Below, one piece after another: positions 1,161 through 60,107 of a stretch of 64,000 bases of DNA. The notes under the pieces are model-generated. The model was not told the DNA's origin, did not search any database, and worked only from the letters and a program-made list of their open reading frames with translations. Position numbers and translations under genes: made by a program. The DNA lies in the NCBI GenBank assembly GCA_021373255.1, contig JAJFTD010000027.1:27109-91108 (forward strand), written 5' to 3'. The DNA is from a bacterium. Lineage in GTDB: Bacteria > Armatimonadota > UBA5829. Every line of letters begins with the position of its first letter. Within the stretch, counting starts at the first letter, position 1.

Positions 1161-4100
1161 TTAATTGCCCAGCTTACCCAGGCAGCATTTCTTGAACTTC
1201 TTGCCGCTTCCGCACGGGCACGGGTCGTTGCGTCCGATTTTGCCTGTCATATGTGCAGTGCCTGTGGCTCTGGCAGTCATCTGTGGTTGGCCGTCGCCCA
1301 TTCCCTGCGGACCCTCGGCGGAAAGCTCCACTGCGTTCTCGTAAGTCAAACGCCTGCGTCTTGGAGGCTCCTGGGTCTGGACTCGATACATTATATGGGC
1401 CATATCTTCCTGGATGCTATCCAGCATTCCCTGGAACAGGTCGTAGGCTTCTTTTTTGTATTCGACCAACGGGTCGCGCTGAGCGTAACCGCGCAGACCG
1501 ATTCCCTCACGCAGGAAATCCATCGCGTCCAGGTGATCGATCCACTTGCGGTTGATCAAGTCCAGAGTTACATGACGCTCGATCTCACGCATCAGCTCAA
1601 CGCCGATCTCCTGTTCCTTGGCTGCATAGCTGTGATCCACGACCTCAGCCAGCATATCCTCAAGCTCATCGCGTCTCTTGCCCTTGAGAGCGTCGGGCTT
1701 TACGTAAAGCTCCAGCGGAAGGATCTCATTTACGTTATGGAACAGCCCATTGGTATCCCACTCGCTCGGGGCAACTCCTTCGGAACAGTAGTTGTTAATA
1801 GCCGCTACCATCGCCTGGTGCAGGTATTCGACCACCGTAGCCCTCAGGTCTGCGCCTTCGAGTATCATCCTGCGCTGGCCATAAATGGTCTCGCGCTGGA
1901 CGTTCATAACGTCATCGTACTCCAACACGTGCTTTCTCATGTCGAAGTGGTGCAATTCGACTTTCTTCTGCGCACGCTCAATAGCTTTAGAGAGCACCTT
2001 ACCCAGGCTGCCCTCGTGCTCGATAGCCTCGTGCTCCTGCCAGCTCTGGAACATCCACGAGTTGGTTTTGTCTCCAAACAGCCGCATGAGTTCGTCTTCA
2101 AATGAGACGAAGAACTTGGACATACCCGGGTCGCCCTGGCGTCCAGAACGTCCTCTGAGCTGGTTATCGATTCGCCTGCTCTCGTGTCGCTCCGTACCTA
2201 TAATGTAAAGCCCACCCCTGAGGACGACATCAAGTGTCCTGGGGTTGGCAGCCGCATCGGCGTATTTGTCCGGGTTGTGCATCTTCCATGAGTCGAAGTC
2301 CCATGTGAGGTCGGCCATATCGAACTCAGGCCCCTCGGGCTCCTCCTCGCCATCTGGAAGCGGAGCGCCGCCCGGGATGATGTCAACACCACGACCGGCC
2401 ATGTTGGTCGCGATTGTAACAGCCCCACGGCGTCCGGCTTGAGATATGATCTCAGCTTCCATCTCGTGATACTTGGCGTTGAGAACGCTGTGGACGATGC
2501 CTTCCTTGAGCGCCTCATACAACTTTTGTTTACCGCTTGGCCTTATGCCGAGCAGCGTCGCAAGCTCGTCGAGGTTCTTCTCGTTAAGCATATTAAGCTC
2601 AACACCGAGCTTCTTAGCCAGCTTGCCAAAGTTGTTAATCCCCAATGTGCTGAACTTTGCATTCAGCAGGTCATAGGACTCCTGCTTCTCTTCTTTGGAA
2701 ATATCATCTGCCGCTTCCAGGCGGGAACGCAGTAGCACCGTGGCCGCCAGCAGTTGCAGCCGCTCGGAGAGCAGCAGTTCGCTTATACGCTCAGATACTT
2801 CAATAGACCTGGTTCCGACCAGCACCGGCTGTTCGCGAGTATAAGCCTTGAGCACTTCGAGCATTATGCCTCTGAACTTGGCCTCTTCGGTCTTGAAAAT
2901 TACATCAGAGACATCCTTGCGTATTACAAGCCTGTTAGTTGGAATCTCGGCGACGTCCAGCGCATAGATCTTACGGAACTCTTCCTCTTCAGTCTTAGCC
3001 GTACCAGTCATACCTGATAATTTGTTGTAAAGCCTGAAGTAGTTCTGGTAGGTGATGGTTGCCAGAGTCTGGTTTTCCTCTTCGACCCGGCATCCTTCCT
3101 TTGCTTCAACAGCCTGGTGAAGCCCGTCGCTCCATCTTCGGCCGAACATCAGACGCCCGGTGAACTCGTCAACGATGGTAACCTGACCGTCCTTCACCAC
3201 ATAGTCGATGTCCTTCTTAAATACCGCGTGGGCTTTAAGGGCGGCGTTGACATACTGGTTAGTTTCCAGGTTTTCAGGGTCGCTGAGGTTTCCGCATCCG
3301 GTGATCTCTTCAACCTTGTGCGTGCCCTCTTCAGTGAGCATCGCAGTCTTGGCTTTCTCGTCGACGGTAAAATCGCGGTCCTTCGACAGCCTGCGCACAA
3401 CCTTGTCCATCTTATAATACATATCACTAGAGCGGTTGCCAGGCCCGGATATGATAAGTGGAGTTCTCGCCTCGTCAACGAGAATGGAGTCCACCTCGTC
3501 GACTATCGCGTAGTTAAGCTCCCTCTGGACCAGGTCTTCGGCTCTGAACGCCATGTTGTCGCGCAGGTAGTCGAACCCAAACTCGTGGTTGGTTCCGTAA
3601 GTGATATCGCAAGCATATGCTTCTCTGCGGCTCACCGGCCTCAGTCTATCCCAACCGTTTGGATCGTCCGCCACGTAGTCCGGATCGAATATGAACGAAT
3701 TGCTGGATTCCCTGCTCTCGGCGCTTTGGCCGTGGATCGATCCGACCGTGAGGCCCAGCATGTGATAAACAGGCCCGTTCCACCGCGCGTCGCGCTTGGA
3801 TAGGTAGTCGTTCACAGTAACCAGGTGAGCGCCCTTACCTGATAATGCGTTCAAATACAGAGGCAGCGTTGCGACAAGGGTCTTACCCTCACCGGTTCTC
3901 ATCTCGGAGATTCGCCCCTGGTGCAGCACCATACCACCGATCATCTGCACGTCAAAGTGCCGGAGACCAAGTACACGCATAGCGGCCTCACGCACCACCG
4001 CGAACGCCTCTACCAGTAGGTCGTCCAGGATCGCACCGTCAGCAAGCCGTTTGCGGAACTCGTCCGTCTTACCTCTAAGCTGTTCATCGCTCAGGGCCTT

Positions 4101-9082: not shown

Positions 9083-9123
9083 CATGTTGCATTACCGATA
9101 CGCGCAACACAGCGCGTTTCCCC

Positions 9124-9147
9124 GTTTCGGGAACAAGTTCCCGAAAC
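9124..9147. promoter_or_regulatory. 24-bp perfect palindrome GTTTCGGGAAC-AA-GTTCCCGAAAC, a candidate operator. A near-identical copy lies at 35704-35727.
   Basis: Read directly from the sequence. It lies between the -10 element and the RBS of the ORF starting at 9171. Confidence 0.6.
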
Positions 9148-9170
9148 ACCGAAGAAAAAGGAGATCGAAC

Positions 9171-23920: not shown

Positions 23921-26349
23921 TGAGCTATGGTCACTTTTCCGATGACGGTAAAGAATATATAGTTACCCGTCCTGATACCCCTCGGCCTTGGATCAACTAT
24001 CTCACCAATGGCCGGTATTGTGCGTTGTGTTCGCAGACGGGTGGGGGGCACTCGTTCTTTGAAACTTCCGGTTACAACCGTGTGACCCGCGAGTATCCGC
24101 AGTTAGTCGTTCTACAGGACAGGCCCGGGCGCTATGTTTTTCTTCGAGATGCCGAAACGGGCGATTACTGGAGCGCCAACTGGCAGCCCGTATGCGATAA
24201 ATTCGATTCATTCGAGGCGCATCATGGTATCGGCTACACATCGATCATGTCATCATCTCACGGCATCGACAGTTGTATTACCTATTATGTACCTCCTAGG
24301 GATGATGTCGAGGTTTGGATGATCAGCCTGAAGAACTCTTCAGATAAGCCGCGAGAGATTCAGGCATTTCCTTATGTGAAGTGGGACCTTGCCAACTTTG
24401 CCTACAGCGCGGTGGAGTCCAGCTTCGCGTCGCTCTTTAACGAGGTGAGCGTCGAGGATCACACCATATTTGTCAGCACTCGCTTTTGGAATATCACCTC
24501 GGGCACGACCGGCAACCCGAACACGCGGTGGGACAAGTGGGCATTTATGACATCCACTGCACCTATTGAGGCTTACGATTGTCTGGACGAAGAGTTTATG
24601 GGGATGTACCGCAGCCTGGCAAACCCAATTGCTATCGAGGAAGGCCAACTCCGAAACAGTTGTGGCAACGGCCGGGAAATTATGGCCTCGTTCCAGCACA
24701 GGTTCAGTCTACAGCCTGGCGAGGAAGTTAAGTTCATAATCCTGGTGGGTGTCGCTTACCGTATGGAAGATGCATTTCATCTTCGCGACCGATACGACGA
24801 CTGGGGTGAAGCCGAGAGGGGTCTTGTGGAACTTGACAGGCATTGGGACAGCTACCTCAGCCGCACTCAGGTTGCAACACCCAGCCGTGAGTTTGACCTC
24901 AGCGTGAACACGTGGAACAAGTATCAGGCGTGGGTGACCTCGCGCTGGAGCCGGATGGATTCATATTACGTCGCCGGTAGCTCGATCATCGGGTTCAGAG
25001 ACAGTTGGCAGGACATGCTTGCCATACTCCCGAACGACGTCGAATGGGCCCGGGAGCGGGTGGTTTATATGCTCGAGCACCAGTTCCCTGACGGAAGCTG
25101 CCTGCACAACTGGGACCCGCTTACCAACATCGGCGTTAAAACCGGCCATTCAGACGACCCTATGTGGCTGGTGCTGGGTGTATTGGAGTATCTCAAAGAA
25201 TCCGGTGATCTGATGTTTCTTGATGAAGCCATACGCTATTATGACGGCGGTTCAGAGACTGTCCGGCAGCATATTGTTCGGGCATTGGATTACACACTCG
25301 CCCACATGAGTGACCGTGGTCTGCCTTTGATCATGGCTGCGGACTGGAATGATGGGCTGGATTATGTGGGCAGGCAGGGTCGTGGTGAGAGCAGCATGGT
25401 TGCTGGTCACCTGGCATGGATGCTTCGTGAAGTAGCTTCCTTGCTTTGGTTCGTGGGCAGTGACGCGCTCGCACAGAAATACGTGGAGGCGCGTGACCAC
25501 CTCGTTCGCAACATAAATCAATATCTTTGGGATGGTGAGTGGTATATCCGAGGCACCCGTGATGATGGTGAAGCATTCGGCTCGTCTCGAAATATAGAGG
25601 GGAGAATCTATATAAACAGCCAATCGTGGATGGTTCTCGGTAGCGCAGCGTCCCGAAATCGTGCGATCCGGTGCATGGACTCTGTAAAGAAGCATCTGGA
25701 TACTCCTTACGGCCCGGCACTTTTTCTGCCCGCTTACCGTGAGCCCGATCCAAAACTCGGTATCATAACCCGCTTTGCGCCCGGCACTAAGGAGAACGGC
25801 ACTATATTCTGCCATCCGACAGCGTGGGTGATTATGGCGGAATGTATACTCGGCCGTGGAGATCAGGCGTGGGAGTATTGGAAGCAGGTATCGTTTGTAC
25901 ACAGGGGGGCTGAGCCTGATGTATATAAGGTCGAACCCTATGTGTATTGTGAATATGTTCACGGGCCCGATTCTGGATACTTCGGCCAGGGCGAGTTCAG
26001 TTGGATGACCGGTACCGCTGCATGGATGTGGAGAGTGTGTATGGATTGGATATTGGGCGTGCGCGCGGAGTTGAGAGGACTGCTGATAGATCCATGCATC
26101 CCATCGGAATGGGACGGGTTCAAGGTTAACCGTCATTTCAGAAAGTGCAATTATGAGATAGAGGTTGAGAACCCTGACCACGTATCACAGGGTGTACGCG
26201 CAATCTTTGTTGACGGAGAGTGTCACACTTCTCACTTACTGCCCCTGTTTCCCCCTGGTGAAACCCATCAGGTAAAAGTAGTAATGGGCGAGCCAACTGG
26301 TGGGGTTGAGGTAGTCGCGGAACTAACTGTGGAGCGGATTAGTACATGA
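23920..26349 (+). CDS. GH94-like glycoside phosphorylase (cellobiose/cellodextrin/chitobiose phosphorylase family)
   Basis: 809 aa. The N-terminus MSYGHFSDDGKEYIVTRPDTPRPWINYLTN and an (alpha/alpha)6 catalytic region match the length and start of cellobiose-phosphorylase-type enzymes. Family assignment is by recollection. Confidence 0.6.
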   Translation: MSYGHFSDDGKEYIVTRPDTPRPWINYLTNGRYCALCSQTGGGHSFFETSGYNRVTREYPQLVVLQDRPGRYVFLRDAETGDYWSANWQPVCDKFDSFEAHHGIGYTSIMSSSHGIDSCITYYVPPRDDVEVWMISLKNSSDKPREIQAFPYVKWDLANFAYSAVESSFASLFNEVSVEDHTIFVSTRFWNITSGTTGNPNTRWDKWAFMTSTAPIEAYDCLDEEFMGMYRSLANPIAIEEGQLRNSCGNGREIMASFQHRFSLQPGEEVKFIILVGVAYRMEDAFHLRDRYDDWGEAERGLVELDRHWDSYLSRTQVATPSREFDLSVNTWNKYQAWVTSRWSRMDSYYVAGSSIIGFRDSWQDMLAILPNDVEWARERVVYMLEHQFPDGSCLHNWDPLTNIGVKTGHSDDPMWLVLGVLEYLKESGDLMFLDEAIRYYDGGSETVRQHIVRALDYTLAHMSDRGLPLIMAADWNDGLDYVGRQGRGESSMVAGHLAWMLREVASLLWFVGSDALAQKYVEARDHLVRNINQYLWDGEWYIRGTRDDGEAFGSSRNIEGRIYINSQSWMVLGSAASRNRAIRCMDSVKKHLDTPYGPALFLPAYREPDPKLGIITRFAPGTKENGTIFCHPTAWVIMAECILGRGDQAWEYWKQVSFVHRGAEPDVYKVEPYVYCEYVHGPDSGYFGQGEFSWMTGTAAWMWRVCMDWILGVRAELRGLLIDPCIPSEWDGFKVNRHFRKCNYEIEVENPDHVSQGVRAIFVDGECHTSHLLPLFPPGETHQVKVVMGEPTGGVEVVAELTVERIST

Positions 26350-26373
26350 TAAGCATTTGCAGCTAACCTGTAG

Positions 26374-26760
26374 GGGCGAAGCACTTGCCCTTCGATTGCC
26401 GTATTTGCTGTAATCTTAAACGCAAGTGCTTCGCCCGCATGTGGCGGGTTTGCTATGCTGCGGGAACTTACCTGGTGGAGAATTCACGCATATGCTGTCA
26501 GCGTCGTTCCCGCAGGATATTAAACCATCAAGCTATCCGAGGGCGAACGCACGAATAAACGTTTGGTGATGGCATTCAAATAGATGACCTGCTTGATGGG
26601 AGGCGATCTCCGAATCGCCTCCCCAAAGCCAATGCCGGATTTCCGAATCCGGCTTCTTCGGCACAGGTTTTGGGGTTCGGAGACCCCATTCTTGGCCTTG
26701 AGGTGGCGATTCGGAGATCGCCACCTATCAGGGTTTCTGCAGGATATCAAACCATCAGGC
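26374..26760. repeat. Highly structured intergenic block made of several nested elements. A 15-bp inverted repeat runs 26374-26388 / 26422-26436. Direct repeats GCAGGATAT(T/C)AAACCATCA(A/G)GC sit at 26512-26533 and 26739-26760. Between them are four related hairpins: P1 26599-26622, P2 26634-26653, P2b 26672-26687, P3 26702-26725.
   Basis: P1 is GGAGGCGATCTCCGAATCGCCTCC. P3 is GGTGGCGATTCGGAGATCGCCACC, which is the reverse-complement core of P1 with a compensatory change. P2 is GCCGGATTTCCGAATCCGGC. P2b is GGGGTTCGGAGACCCC. All were read directly from the sequence. Confidence 0.55.
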
Positions 26761-26786
26761 CATCCAGCCATCAGACCCATAACGTC

Positions 26787-26815
26787 TTGTCAATAGGCTT
26801 CCACCCTGATAGAAT
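26787..26815 (+). promoter_or_regulatory. hsp20 promoter TTGTCA-17-TAGAAT
   Basis: TTGTCA at 26787-26792 and TAGAAT at 26810-26815. Confidence 0.45.
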
Positions 26816-26829
26816 GATGCTCTAGTAGG

Positions 26830-26848
26830 GGCACACATAATATGTGCC
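26830..26848. promoter_or_regulatory. 19-bp near-perfect palindrome GGCACACATAATATGTGCC between the -10 element and the RBS of hsp20 (candidate repressor operator)
   Basis: 18 of 19 positions are self-complementary. It lies about 15 nt downstream of the -10 and 9 nt upstream of the AAGGTGA RBS. Confidence 0.45.
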
Positions 26849-26868
26849 TGGGAAATAAGGTGACTTGC

Positions 26869-27324
26869 ATGATGTTCAAATCTTATGACGAGATGCTTGA
26901 GGAGTTGGAGCGAGAGATGCGTCGTGTGTCTGATGATATGCTGCTCCATATGTTTCGGATATCGAGCACCTCGGGTGATGTGTGGTCGCCCAGAGTCGAT
27001 GTATATGAGACTGCCGATGCTGTGGTTGTGAAAGTATGTGCCGCAGGGCTGGAGCCAGGCCAGATAGAACTGACCCTATCTGGAGACGGCAGGTTTCTCA
27101 CGCTGCGAGGCATGAGAGTCGAGCAGGATGAGGACAAGGGGCAGAGGATTCGCTATCATCAGTTGGAGGTATACTACGGGCCATTCGAACGCGTGGTGTC
27201 CCTGCCAAACGAGATTCCTCTTGAGCGCGACAGCCTTACCGCGAATTACAAAGACGGATTTCTGAAGGTAGTGCTGCCGAAGATTCAGCAGCCGACACCT
27301 ACGAAGATAGACATAGAAGAATAG
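26869..27324 (+). CDS. Hsp20/alpha-crystallin family small heat-shock protein
   Basis: Alpha-crystallin domain (VDVYETADAVVVKVCAAGLEPGQIELTLSGDGRFLTLRGMR...YGPFERVVSLPNEIPLERDSLTANYKDGFLKVVLPK). RBS AAGGTGA. The start is the ATG at 26869 or 26872. Confidence 0.9.
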   Translation: MMFKSYDEMLEELEREMRRVSDDMLLHMFRISSTSGDVWSPRVDVYETADAVVVKVCAAGLEPGQIELTLSGDGRFLTLRGMRVEQDEDKGQRIRYHQLEVYYGPFERVVSLPNEIPLERDSLTANYKDGFLKVVLPKIQQPTPTKIDIEE

Positions 27325-27458
27325 ACCCGGACATGATGCCGGGATTTGGCGCGGTAACTAACTCGGAGCATCGCATCGGATTATACTCTTGGACCGGTGT
27401 GACTTTGCGCCCAGGCACTGTGTTGCCCTGCTCCGAGGTGAAGTGATGGAGGTTATTT

Positions 27459-33913: not shown

Positions 33914-33946
33914 ATAACGCATGTTGCTTCGGACTGCGGAGCTGCC
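33914..33946. repeat. REP-like element copy TTGCTTCGGACTGCGGAGCTGCCGAAGCC, followed by a second GC-rich mini-hairpin
   Basis: Nearly identical (1 mismatch) to 59909-59941. Its inverted copy is at 60029-60063. Confidence 0.5.
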
Positions 33947-34039
33947 GAAGCCGCCGGGCGCGCCATCATCTCAACGATTCAATTGTATAGAATCACAGCA
34001 GTTAATAACGCGTACCAAAAATAGGGAGCGTGGGTCAAT

Positions 34040-35692: not shown

Positions 35693-35703
35693 TCTAATAA
35701 GGC

Positions 35704-35727
35704 GTTTCGGGAACTTGTTCCCGAAAC
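35704..35727. promoter_or_regulatory. 24-bp perfect palindrome GTTTCGGGAAC-TT-GTTCCCGAAAC (second copy of the 9124-9147 operator-like element)
   Basis: Identical 11-bp arms with only the central dinucleotide differing (TT versus AA). It lies between the -10 element and the RBS of the downstream gene. Confidence 0.6.
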
Positions 35728-35777
35728 AGAGAACGCGCTATCTCGCTTAAATGATCAGTTTCAACAGGAGTGTCGCT

Positions 35778-59885: not shown

Positions 59886-60107
59886 ATCTGCGATCCAATG
59901 TGACATAGTTGCTTCGGACTGCGAAGCTGCCGAAGCCGGCCTCGCAGAGGCCGAGAAGACCACGTTTCGTATAATTCACAGGCTTGGTTTATAACCGGTA
60001 CATTGTTTCGCCGCCTTCGGCGGCGGCTTCGGCAGCTCCGCTACGCTCCGCAGTCCGAAGCAACCTCAGTTTGTTCGCTAGCTTTCGACAACACTGATCT
60101 GCGATCC
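59886..60107. repeat. REP/MITE-like composite: two inverted copies of the roughly 33-nt element (59909-59941 and 60029-60063) flanked by 11-bp direct repeats ATCTGCGATCC (59886-59896 and 60097-60107)
   Basis: Left arm: TTGCTTCGGACTGCGAAGCTGCCGAAGCC. Right arm reverse complement: TTGCTTCGGACTGCGGAGCGTAGCGGAGCTGCCGAAGCC (carries a 10-nt internal duplication). Each arm is followed by a second GC-rich mini-hairpin. The direct repeats were read directly. Confidence 0.55.

What the first reader, a model, noticed from the sequence alone, without database searches (positions are those of the whole stretch)
26374..26760. Dense array of related hairpins and direct repeats filling the 500-nt gap upstream of the hsp20-lon heat-shock locus
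Between the GH94 gene and hsp20 there is no coding capacity but a great deal of structure. A 15-bp perfect inverted repeat with a 33-nt spacer runs 26374-26436. A 22-nt direct repeat GCAGGATAT(T/C)AAACCATCA(A/G)GC sits at 26512 and 26739 and brackets about 205 nt. Inside that bracket are four hairpins built on one 12-mer core used in both orientations: P1 GGAGGC[GATCTCCGAATC]GCCTCC, P2 GCCGGATT[TCCGAATC]CGGC, P2b GGGGT[TCGGAG]ACCCC, and P3 GGTGGC[GATTCGGAGATC]GCCACC. P3 is the reverse complement of P1 with a compensatory base-pair change, which is the signature of selection on structure. The outer direct repeat also pairs with GCTTGATGG just before P1. This could be a structured ncRNA, for example a thermosensor or sRNA feeding into the heat-shock genes. 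It could be a multi-site protein-binding array. It could also be a small non-autonomous insertion bounded by the 22-nt direct repeats. I know of no family that matches this.
Basis: seen in the sequence. Interest (0 to 1): 0.75.

Follow-up and report, generated by a model that had tools for sequence, protein, structure and literature searches.

The report
REP/REPIN-type palindromic repeat upstream of hsp20
The hairpin cluster upstream of the hsp20-lon genes is a copy of a small palindromic repeat (REP/REPIN type) that is scattered through Armatimonadota and Verrucomicrobiota genomes and is missing at this site in close relatives, so it is an ordinary inserted repeat and not a dedicated heat-shock regulator.

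Summary
The four hairpins form one 141-nt unit, 26592-26732. P1 and P3 are its 39-nt inverted arms, and P2 and P2b form an inner inverted pair.

- The P1/P3 core GGCGAT-CTCCGA-ATCGCC gave at least 118 stretches in the species-representative genomes (about 17 expected by chance). About 100 of them carry lineage-specific conserved flanks in Armatimonadota and Verrucomicrobiota.
- The whole unit recurs at 80-82% identity at unrelated loci of a related MAG.
- In two Verrucomicrobiota genomes, inverted copies of the hairpin flank a REP-associated tyrosine transposase (RAYT) gene.
- The closest relatives keep GH94-hsp20-lon with an intergenic region of only about 180 nt (terminator hairpin, conserved promoter, 5'UTR). 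About 340 nt of the window's gap is therefore lineage-specific and lies upstream of the conserved promoter.
- The stem base pair next to the invariant core covaries through all four Watson-Crick types, so the selection on structure is family-wide and not local.

The 33-nt direct repeats lie outside the mobile unit, and their origin remains unexplained. No RAYT was found for the Armatimonadota lineage, and copy number in the source genome could not be tested.

Verdict: a new member of a known kind; low interest.

The parts
26592..26732 (.). 141-nt REPIN-like composite element. Its two 39-nt inverted arms carry P1 and P3. An inner inverted pair, P2 and P2b, lies between them.
   Evidence: It aligns over its full length at 82% with L060:7523-7662 and at 80% with L002:4767-4904. 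Truncated copies occur in L112, L065 and L014, and the flanks are unrelated in every case. It folds as one long hairpin.
26594..26625 (+). REP unit P1: tag TGATGGG, stem AGGCGAT/ATCGCCT, loop CTCCGA.
   Evidence: ssDNA -11.6 kcal/mol, z = -5.5. It matches the Armatimonadota REP consensus GAT(A/G)GG(T/C)-GGCGAT-CTCCGA-ATCGCC (nhmmer hit at 26593+).
26634..26653 (+). P2: a REP variant with the same loop and closing motif (GAT-TTCCGA-ATC) on a different stem, GCCGGAT/ATCCGGC.
   Evidence: -9.3 kcal/mol. Conserved in L060, L002, L112 and L065.
26671..26688 (-). P2b: a REP variant in inverted orientation (stem GGGGT/ACCCC, loop CTCCGA on the - strand).
   Evidence: Invariant in all six aligned copies.
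26699..26730 (-). REP unit P3 in inverted orientation. The - strand reads TGATAGGT-GGCGAT-CTCCGA-ATCGCC-ACCTCA, which is the family consensus.
   Evidence: (nhmmer hit at 26694-, score 44).
26506..26538 (+). Left 33-nt direct repeat. It lies outside the mobile unit and contains a REP-tag-like hexamer (CCATCA on the + strand, the complement of TGATGG) plus an arm complementary to 26447-26467.
   Evidence: (D1, I2). It is not a dispersed repeat.
26733..26765 (+). Right 33-nt direct repeat (85% identical to the left copy). It starts exactly where the mobile unit ends.
   Evidence: (D1, I3).
26447..26467 (-). Third, inverted copy of the direct-repeat arm. It forms a hairpin with 26506-26526 (21-nt arms, 86% complementary, 38-nt loop).
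   Evidence: I2, I3; ssDNA -18.3 kcal/mol, z = -3.6.
26374..26448 (+). Stem-loops at the 3' end of the GH94 gene. They comprise the perfect 15-bp inverted repeat with its 33-nt loop and a short terminator-like hairpin (26430-26448) followed by TTTGC. This is context, not part of the repeat element.
   Evidence: (I4). Relatives L126 and L127 carry a different-sequence long-loop hairpin at the same position, right after the GH94 stop.
26787..26815 (+). hsp20 promoter-like site: TTGTCA, 17-nt spacer, TG-n-TAGAAT. It is conserved in relatives and lies downstream of the repeat block.
   Evidence: It aligns with TTGTAA-17-TGCTAGAAT in L120-L123 and L125-L128.

Best explanation
Bases 26592-26732 are one copy of a REP/REPIN-type element.

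**Anatomy**
- The basic unit is a hairpin of about 32 nt: a 5' tag GAT(A/G)GG, a variable stem, and the invariant closing-and-loop motif GAT-CTCCGA-ATC.
- Two units (P1, P2) sit in one orientation and two (P2b, P3) in the other.
- The whole can therefore form either four small hairpins or one long hairpin on single-stranded DNA.

**Mechanism**
- Elements of this kind are non-autonomous. They are copied in trans by a single-copy HUH/Y1 enzyme, the REP-associated tyrosine transposase (RAYT), which recognises the hairpin and its 5' tag on single-stranded DNA.

**What is shown**
- The family is dispersed and multi-copy in related genomes.
- Stems covary around an invariant loop.
- RAYT genes are flanked by this very hairpin in Verrucomicrobiota.
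- The element is missing from the orthologous site in close relatives.

**What is inferred**
- A RAYT also mobilises the element in this Armatimonadota lineage.
- The copy at hsp20 is a passenger that landed in the permissive spacer between the GH94 terminator and the hsp20 promoter. It would have at most side effects there, such as blocking read-through or acting as a recombination hot spot.
- The surrounding extra DNA of about 200 nt, including the 33-nt direct repeats, is probably decayed or rearranged REP-related material. It holds five more copies of the REP tag hexamer.
For: About 17 are expected by chance (my calculation). About 19 hits are chance matches in unrelated taxa. The rest carry conserved flanks: GAT(A/G)GG(T/C) in Armatimonadota-type MAGs (10 stretches from the 3-Mb contig JBMNES010000001.1 alone) and CAAGGAG in Verrucomicrobiota.
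2. **The whole unit recurs.** The 141-nt composite recurs at 80-82% identity with unrelated flanks in MAG MFD01112.bin.2.36. That MAG is syntenic with window 51.2-52.6 kb yet carries a copy there where the window has none.
3. **RAYT link.** L075:4013-4804(-) matches Pfam Y1_Tnp. It passes the NCBIfam REP_Tyr_transpos equivalog cut-off (83.6 against 80). It carries the HUH (NHVHLM) and Tyr (DYFDRLIR) motifs. Inverted copies of the hairpin flank it at 3957+ and 4810-. A 61%-identical homologue in L035 is likewise flanked. Source databases name its homologues 'REP element-mobilizing transposase RayT'.
4. **Empty sites.** L126 and L127 (Hsp20 87% identical) have only 181-185 nt between GH94 and hsp20 and no REP. 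L120 and L121 also lack it.
5. **Covariation.** The base pair next to the invariant core is GC 35, CG 28, UA 24, AU 11. Cells changed on both sides number 65, against 27±4 in shuffles (0 of 500 shuffles reach that).
6. **Doublets elsewhere.** Inverted doublets 48-103 nt apart occur in many genomes.
7. **Tag enrichment.** TGAT(A/G)G occurs 7 times in 26525-26812, against a mean of 0.43 per 320 nt. This is the only such place in the window.
Against: - Within the 64-kb window the family occurs only at this locus. The rest of the source genome could not be read, so multi-copy status in this genome is untested.
- No RAYT gene was found in the window or in about 24 Armatimonadota-type 8-kb loci. The transposase link is therefore shown only for the Verrucomicrobiota subfamily.
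- The family lacks the GTAG or CGTC end tag that PMC3733652 reports for most REPs.
- The 33-nt direct repeats and about 200 nt of extra DNA are not explained by the REPIN model.
- Only 94 of 122 REP-type hits lie outside a stop-to-stop ORF of 200 aa or more. This is a crude test in GC-rich genomes.
Confidence: 0.8

Rival explanations
1. The block is a dedicated cis-regulatory RNA (a thermosensor or sRNA) controlling hsp20-lon.
For: The predicted structure is very stable on both strands (z = -6 to -8). P1 and P3 differ by a compensatory change. The location next to heat-shock genes fits.
Against: The block is absent at the orthologous site in all relatives examined. It lies 55 nt or more upstream of the -35 box of the conserved promoter, so it is not in the hsp20 transcript. 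The same unit sits at unrelated loci in another genome. There is no Rfam match. The covariation is family-wide.
Confidence: 0.03
2. The three copies of the 21-33-nt arm (26447-26467 inverted, 26506-26538, 26733-26765) are operator sites for a DNA-binding regulator of hsp20-lon or of the GH94 gene.
For: There are three copies of a 21-nt motif within 320 nt, two direct and one inverted, found nowhere else in the window. They are not a dispersed repeat in JGI metagenomes.
Against: The motif is absent from the same spacer in close relatives, which keep the promoter. The spacings are 59 and 227 nt. Each copy carries the REP tag hexamer, which links it to the repeat system. No regulator gene is adjacent.
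Confidence: 0.07
3. The 141-nt unit is a classical MITE, mobilised by a DDE transposase through its terminal inverted repeats, and not a RAYT-dependent REPIN.
For: The terminal inverted repeats are long (39 nt), the element is small, copies are dispersed, and truncated variants exist. No RAYT was found in the Armatimonadota loci.
Against: No target-site duplication is visible at any of the three full copies. Each arm is itself a hairpin, and the same hairpin occurs as singlets and as direct tandem arrays, which fits REPs and not MITEs. The same hairpin flanks RAYT genes in Verrucomicrobiota. No recurrent transposase ORF lies next to copies in the Armatimonadota loci.
Confidence: 0.08
4. The REPIN copy has been co-opted locally. 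It might act as a read-through block or 3'-end stabiliser for the GH94 mRNA, or as an insulator that keeps the heat-shock promoter independent. This is compatible with the best explanation.
For: It is a very stable hairpin placed between a weak terminator-like site (26430-26448, poor T-tract) and the hsp20 promoter. From general knowledge, REPs in E. coli stabilise upstream mRNA and attenuate transcription; this was not tested here.
Against: No U-tract follows the hairpin. Relatives manage without it. No expression data exist.
Confidence: 0.15

Closest known systems
REPINs (REP doublets forming hairpins) and their RAYT transposases, described in Pseudomonas fluorescens SBW25 (PMC3116915, PMC3337134)
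   Same: Two REP hairpins in inverted orientation are separated by a spacer and can form one long hairpin. Copies are dispersed, and singlets also occur. In Verrucomicrobiota a Y1/HUH RAYT gene is flanked by the same repeat. The element is absent from orthologous sites in relatives.
   Different: - Each arm carries two hairpins, so the element has four hairpins in 141 nt.
- The end tag is GAT(A/G)GG or CAAGGAG, not GTAG.
- The 18-nt core is identical in two phyla, whereas REPIN-RAYT systems are described as mostly vertically inherited.
- The RAYT has not yet been found in the Armatimonadota lineage.
E. coli REP sequences and BIMEs (bacterial interspersed mosaic elements)
   Same: Both are clusters of short imperfect palindromes in alternating orientation with linker motifs. 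Both sit in extragenic spacers between a terminator and the next promoter. Direct tandem arrays occur in some loci (L109, L086, L036, L073).
   Different: There is no sequence relation. Binding of IHF, gyrase or Pol I, which defines BIME subtypes, was not tested. The host phyla differ.
GTAG- and CGTC-tagged stem-loop repeats surveyed across prokaryotes, including the verrucomicrobium Opitutus terrae (PMC3733652)
   Same: Both are short palindromic stem-loops with a conserved tag at one end. Both are high-copy, are often linked to RAYT genes, and are present in the PVC superphylum.
   Different: The tag here is neither GTAG nor CGTC. Armatimonadota are not mentioned in that survey.
Correia elements (Neisseria MITEs)
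   Same: Both are dispersed elements of about 100-150 nt with long inverted arms. Both are often inserted just upstream of genes, and both fold as long hairpins in RNA.
   Different: Correia elements have a TA target duplication and carry promoter and IHF or RNase III sites. No target duplication is seen here, and the arms are themselves hairpins.

Membership tests
REP / REPIN | Short (about 20-40 nt) imperfect palindrome able to form a stem-loop | tested here: met
   P1 and P3 have 10-bp stems and 6-nt loops, ssDNA -11.6 and -11.4 kcal/mol, z = -5.5 and -5.7.
REP / REPIN | Many dispersed, mostly extragenic copies within a genome | tested here: inconclusive
   Met in related genomes: 10 stretches with exact 18-mer matches from one 3-Mb Armatimonadota contig, 5 from MFD01112.bin.2.36, and many in Verrucomicrobiota MAGs. 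94 of 122 copies lie outside long ORFs. In the source genome only 64 kb could be read, and it holds one locus.
REP / REPIN | Two REPs in inverted orientation with a spacer, forming a long hairpin (the REPIN doublet) | tested here: met
   Arms 26594-26632 and 26692-26730 are 87% complementary. The long-hairpin fold has z = -7.8 to -9. Doublets also occur in L002, L060, L082, L012, L016, L055, L089, L092, L110 and L113.
REP / REPIN | A cognate RAYT (Y1/HUH transposase) gene flanked by the same repeat | tested here: inconclusive
   Met for the Verrucomicrobiota subfamily in L075 and L035. No RAYT was found in the window or in the Armatimonadota-type loci fetched. The source genome could not be searched.
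REP / REPIN | Conserved GTAG (or CGTC) tetranucleotide at one end (PMC3733652) | tested here: not met
   The consensus 5' flank is GAT(A/G)GG(T/C) in Armatimonadota and CAAGGAG in Verrucomicrobiota, with no GTAG or CGTC. A conserved tag exists but is a different one.
REP / REPIN | Presence/absence between related genomes at orthologous sites (mobility) | tested here: met
   Absent upstream of hsp20 in L120, L121, L126 and L127. Present next to the tRNA cluster in L060 but absent from the syntenic window region 52.3-53.1 kb.
MITE (DDE-transposase type) | Terminal inverted repeats plus a short target-site duplication | tested here: not met
   Inverted arms are present, but no duplicated flank is seen at the three full-length copies. 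The 33-nt direct repeats are not adjacent to both ends: the left one ends 53 nt before the element.
Cis-regulatory RNA (e.g. RNA thermometer) of hsp20 | Located in the regulated transcript and conserved, with covariation, at orthologous loci | tested here: not met
   It lies upstream of the conserved promoter and is absent in orthologous spacers. No Rfam family matched.

The most novel reading that the evidence does not exclude
This is an undescribed REP/REPIN family defined by an invariant hairpin loop motif (GAT-CTCCGA-ATC) on freely covarying stems, with a non-GTAG tag and a four-hairpin REPIN form. Its 18-nt core is identical in Armatimonadota and Verrucomicrobiota. That would imply cross-phylum transfer, or very ancient retention, of a RAYT-REPIN system, against the prevailing picture of strictly vertical, lineage-specific REPIN populations. 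A further possibility is that the locus-specific triple arm, which includes the 33-nt direct repeats, records how such elements insert or rearrange.
Probability: 0.35. Interest if true: 0.4.

Novelty: new member of a known kind. Interest (0 to 1): 0.22.

Why it matters
For annotation of this window, the result removes a false lead. The heat-shock locus has an ordinary conserved sigma-70-type promoter and 5'UTR, and the structure upstream of it is inserted repeat DNA.

More generally, it documents a REP/REPIN-type family in two little-studied phyla.
- The family has an unusual tag.
- It has a loop-centred recognition motif.
- It has a four-hairpin doublet form.

Such repeats break metagenome assemblies and mimic structured RNAs in scans. 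Knowing the consensus GAT(A/G)GG-N-GGCGATCTCCGAATCGCC allows them to be masked. The shared core across phyla is a modest but testable question about how RAYT-REPIN systems spread.

Tried and rejected
- **Rfam.** A permissive-threshold scan of 25800-27400 gave only chance-level hits, the best at E = 0.09 and below its gathering score.
- **Direct repeat as a dispersed family.** A JGI metagenome scan with GCAGGATATYAAACCATCA gave 7 hits, all with unrelated flanks, so they are chance matches. There is no other copy in the window.
- **Tandem duplication of the promoter region as the source of the direct repeats.** Beyond the 33 nt, only a weak 18/22 match links 26578-26598 to the RBS/start region 26851-26872 (5 of 500 shuffles score as high). 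This is not convincing.
- **RAYT in the window or the Armatimonadota loci.** tblastn, plus an HMM built from 120 RAYT homologues, found none.
- **Any recurrent gene next to the Armatimonadota copies.** All-against-all blastp found none.
- **Extending the source contig beyond the window, or finding other assemblies with the same Hsp20.** Four look-ups returned 'not on record'.
- **Phage origin.** The viral-contig scan gave a single hit.
- **Literature search for the 12-mer core.** It found only two unrelated papers on human genes.
- **A shared 5'UTR structure among relatives.** RNAalifold found only 4 weak pairs between a GCC stretch and the Shine-Dalgarno region, with no covariation.
- **Retron, integron attC and CRISPR readings.** Considered from general knowledge and dropped. 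No RT, integrase or cas gene lies nearby, and the repeat architecture does not fit.

Full report
**1. The observation**

The hsp20 start is 26869 in the public annotation of the source contig.
- The perfect 15-bp inverted repeat is at 26374-26388 / 26422-26436.
- The 22-mer direct repeat is at 26512 and 26739. It is really 33 nt long, 26506-26538 vs 26733-26765, at 85% identity.
- The four hairpins are P1 (26598-26623), P2 (26634-26653), P2b (26671-26688) and P3 (26701-26726).

These features are not chance. The 12-mer core occurs 3 times against 0.21 expected. The 22-mer occurs twice against 0 expected.

Three things were missed.
- P1 and P3 are the arms of a 39-nt, 87% inverted repeat, so 26585-26735 folds as one long hairpin (RNA -89 kcal/mol, z = -7.8). 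The element 26592-26732 folds as ssDNA at -47 to -49 kcal/mol, z = -8 to -9.
- A third, inverted copy of the direct-repeat arm lies at 26447-26467.
- The loop CTCCGA with its closing A-T pairs is the constant feature of all four hairpins, which use three different stems. In P2 the motif differs at one base (TTCCGA).

**2. Source and context**

The window comes from NCBI MAG GCA_039683435.1, contig JBDKRM010000068.1. The flanking genes are a GH94 glycoside phosphorylase, Hsp20 and Lon. Hsp20 homologues at 72-77% identity are labelled Armatimonadota.

A good sigma-70-type promoter, TTGTCA-17-TGnTAGAAT, lies at 26787-26815, downstream of the whole repeat block. Rfam has nothing here.

**3. The hairpin is a dispersed repeat**

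I scanned one genome per species (596 Gb) for the P1/P3 core GGCGATCTCCGAATCGCC. About 17 are expected by chance, by my calculation. Reading the flanks sorts the hits into three groups.
- About 19 are isolated hits in unrelated taxa, 14 of the 19 inside long ORFs. They match the chance expectation.
- About 75 come from Verrucomicrobiota MAGs (Akkermansiaceae, Luteolibacter and others), with the conserved 5' flank CAAGGAG.
- About 24 come from Armatimonadota-type MAGs. Their consensus is GAT(A/G)GG(T/C)-GGCGAT-CTCCGA-ATCGCC-(A/G)CC(C/T)CA, and the minus strand of P3 matches it exactly. The contributing assemblies are JBMNES010000001.1 (10 stretches), CAZBSI01 (6), CAWGNL01 (5), CAZTAO01 (2) and JBPOHN01 (1).

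Copies occur as singlets, as direct tandem arrays and as inverted doublets 48-103 nt apart.

Across 119 distinct copies, the base pair next to the invariant core is GC 35, CG 28, UA 24, AU 11. Cells changed on both sides number 65, against 27±4 in shuffles (0 of 500).

**4. The whole four-hairpin block is the mobile unit**

BLAST of the intergenic region against the fetched loci aligned 26592-26732 end to end with two loci. L060:7523-7662 matches at 82% and L002:4767-4904 at 80%. Shortened copies lie in L112, L065 and L014. All five loci are from MAG MFD01112.bin.2.36, and similarity stops at the element ends.

The short copies look like deletions between the repeated 12-mer cores. No target-site duplication is visible.

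That MAG is a relative of the source. L060 is syntenic with window 51.2-52.6 kb, a tRNA Thr/Phe/Asp/Val cluster. It carries a copy of the element just beyond the cluster, where the window has none.

The 33-nt direct repeats are not part of the unit. The right repeat begins exactly at its end (26733). The left repeat ends 53 nt before its start.

**5. Link to a transposase**

- In L075 (Verrucomicrobiaceae MAG), inverted copies of the hairpin at 3957+ and 4810- flank a 263-aa ORF.
- That ORF carries the HUH (NHVHLM) and catalytic Tyr (DYFDRLIR) motifs.
- It matches Pfam Y1_Tnp and passes NCBIfam's REP-associated tyrosine transposase equivalog cut-off, 83.6 against 80 bits.
- A 61%-identical homologue in L035 is flanked in the same way and sits next to a three-unit tandem array of the hairpin.
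- Source databases call its 1872 homologues 'REP element-mobilizing transposase RayT' or 'REP-associated tyrosine transposase'.

This is the defining arrangement of REP/REPIN-RAYT systems (PMC3116915, PMC5581495).

I found no RAYT in the window or in the Armatimonadota-type loci, and no other recurrent gene beside the copies. For this lineage the transposase is inferred, not shown.

**6. The orthologous site in relatives**

The closest relatives with data, L126 and L127 (Hsp20 87% identical), keep the order GH94-hsp20 with only 181-185 nt between the genes. That spacer holds three things:
- a long-loop hairpin right after the GH94 stop, analogous in position to the window's 15-bp inverted repeat;
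- the promoter TTGTAA-17-TGCTAGAAT;
- a 5'UTR.

L120 and L121 (81% identical) share the promoter and 5'UTR but nothing upstream of them.

About 340 nt of the window's spacer, roughly 26450-26786, is therefore lineage-specific and lies entirely upstream of the conserved promoter.

**7. What remains unexplained**

Only 141 of the roughly 340 extra nucleotides are the REPIN-like unit. The rest contains the three copies of the 21-33-nt arm.
- The arm is not found elsewhere in the window.
- It is not a dispersed repeat in JGI metagenomes, where all 7 hits are chance.
- It does not come from a clear tandem duplication of the promoter region.

Each direct repeat does contain the REP tag hexamer. TGAT(A/G)G occurs 7 times in 26525-26812, against a mean of 0.43 per 320 nt, and this is the only such cluster in 64 kb. 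My best guess is decayed or rearranged REP-related DNA. An example would be a second palindromic unit whose tagged arm was duplicated when the REPIN arrived. This is inference only.

**8. Mechanism and function**

Most likely this is a non-autonomous REPIN-type element copied in trans by a RAYT acting on single-stranded hairpins. The invariant loop-and-closing motif and the 5' tag would be the recognition features, and the stem would only need to pair. The copy has landed in the permissive spacer between a terminator and a promoter.

A local side role is possible but untested. It could block read-through or stabilise the 3' end of the GH94 mRNA. No U-tract follows the hairpin, and relatives do without it.

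**9. Comparison with known families, and novelty**

The kind is known: REP, BIME and REPIN elements with RAYTs. Four differences stand out.
- The tag is neither GTAG nor CGTC, the tags reported for most REPs, including those of the verrucomicrobium Opitutus terrae (PMC3733652).
- The doublet has two hairpins per arm.
- The 18-nt core is identical in two phyla.
- The 12-mer core appears in no relevant paper in the searchable literature.

I file it as a new member of a known kind. The membership caveats are that the RAYT link is unproven in this lineage and that copy number in the source genome is untested.

**10. Verdict**

The regulatory-RNA and operator readings are rejected. The 'small non-autonomous insertion' reading is right in kind but wrong in its boundaries. 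Interest is low (0.22). The cross-phylum sharing of the REP core and the unexplained direct repeats are the only points that might repay more work.

Noticed in passing
window 26787-26868; L120:246-310, L123:27-91, L126:348-420, L128:90-162: The elements actually conserved upstream of hsp20 are the promoter (TTGT(A/C)A, 17-nt spacer, TG-n-TAGAAT) and the Shine-Dalgarno sequence AAGGTG. Each relative has a hairpin of different sequence in the 5'UTR; in the window it is the near-palindrome GGCACACAT-A-ATATGTGCC at 26830-26848. RNAalifold found only 4 weak pairs between a GCC stretch and the SD. If any thermosensor exists, this is where to look.
   Followed up: partly
L125:~290-440 (JGI metagenome 3300004241): One relative (Hsp20 87% identical) carries a separate insertion of about 200 nt inside the hsp20 5'UTR, between the promoter and the SD. 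It is unrelated to the REP element.
   Followed up: no
L122, L123, L124, L128 (contig ends): Several relatives' contigs end 76-156 nt upstream of hsp20. This would fit assemblies breaking at repeats in this spacer.
   Followed up: no
window 33923-33953 and 59908-59938; window 9111-9150 and 35701-35739 (-): Two other small palindromic repeats each occur twice in the window. They are GTTGCTTCGGACTGCGRAGCTGCCGAAGCC and AGCGCGTT..GTTTCGGGAAC-AA-GTTCCCGAAAC. They may be further REP-like families of this genome.
   Followed up: no
L060:7100-7170; L018, L028, L036, L067, L074 flanks: Armatimonadota-type genomes carry short heptamer-style tandem repeats next to REP copies, for example TTGGAAATTGGAAGTTGGAG, GTCCGAT repeats and GGTTGTC repeats. 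In L060 a 69-nt hairpin of this kind is inserted between tRNA-Asp and tRNA-Val, where the window has none.
   Followed up: no
L003, L010, L018, L067, L074, L094 flanks: Two more recurrent palindromic repeats sit beside the REP copies in Armatimonadota-type MAGs: GTCATCCTGCGCG(A/C)AGTCGCAGGATCAC and CCCGTCATTTCGAGCGCAGCGAGAAATC. The first resembles the CGCAGGAT part of the window's direct-repeat arm.
   Followed up: no
L136:1040-1100 (IMG/VR UViG 3300032397_002336): The only viral-collection hit carries an Armatimonadota-type REP (GATGGGT-GGCGATCTCCGAATCGCC-ACCCCAAGGCCAAT) preceded by a P2-like hairpin. It may be a provirus or a misclassified host fragment.
   Followed up: no
L035:2033-2150: Three REP units form a perfect 50-nt tandem array directly beside the RAYT gene of a Verrucomicrobiota MAG.
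   Followed up: no
window 26370-26377 and 26825-26832: GTAGGGGC occurs twice, each time immediately before a palindrome: the GH94 3' hairpin and the hsp20 5'UTR hairpin. GTAG is the classical REP tag, but an 8-mer repeated within 600 nt is within chance, and relatives lack it.
   Followed up: partly
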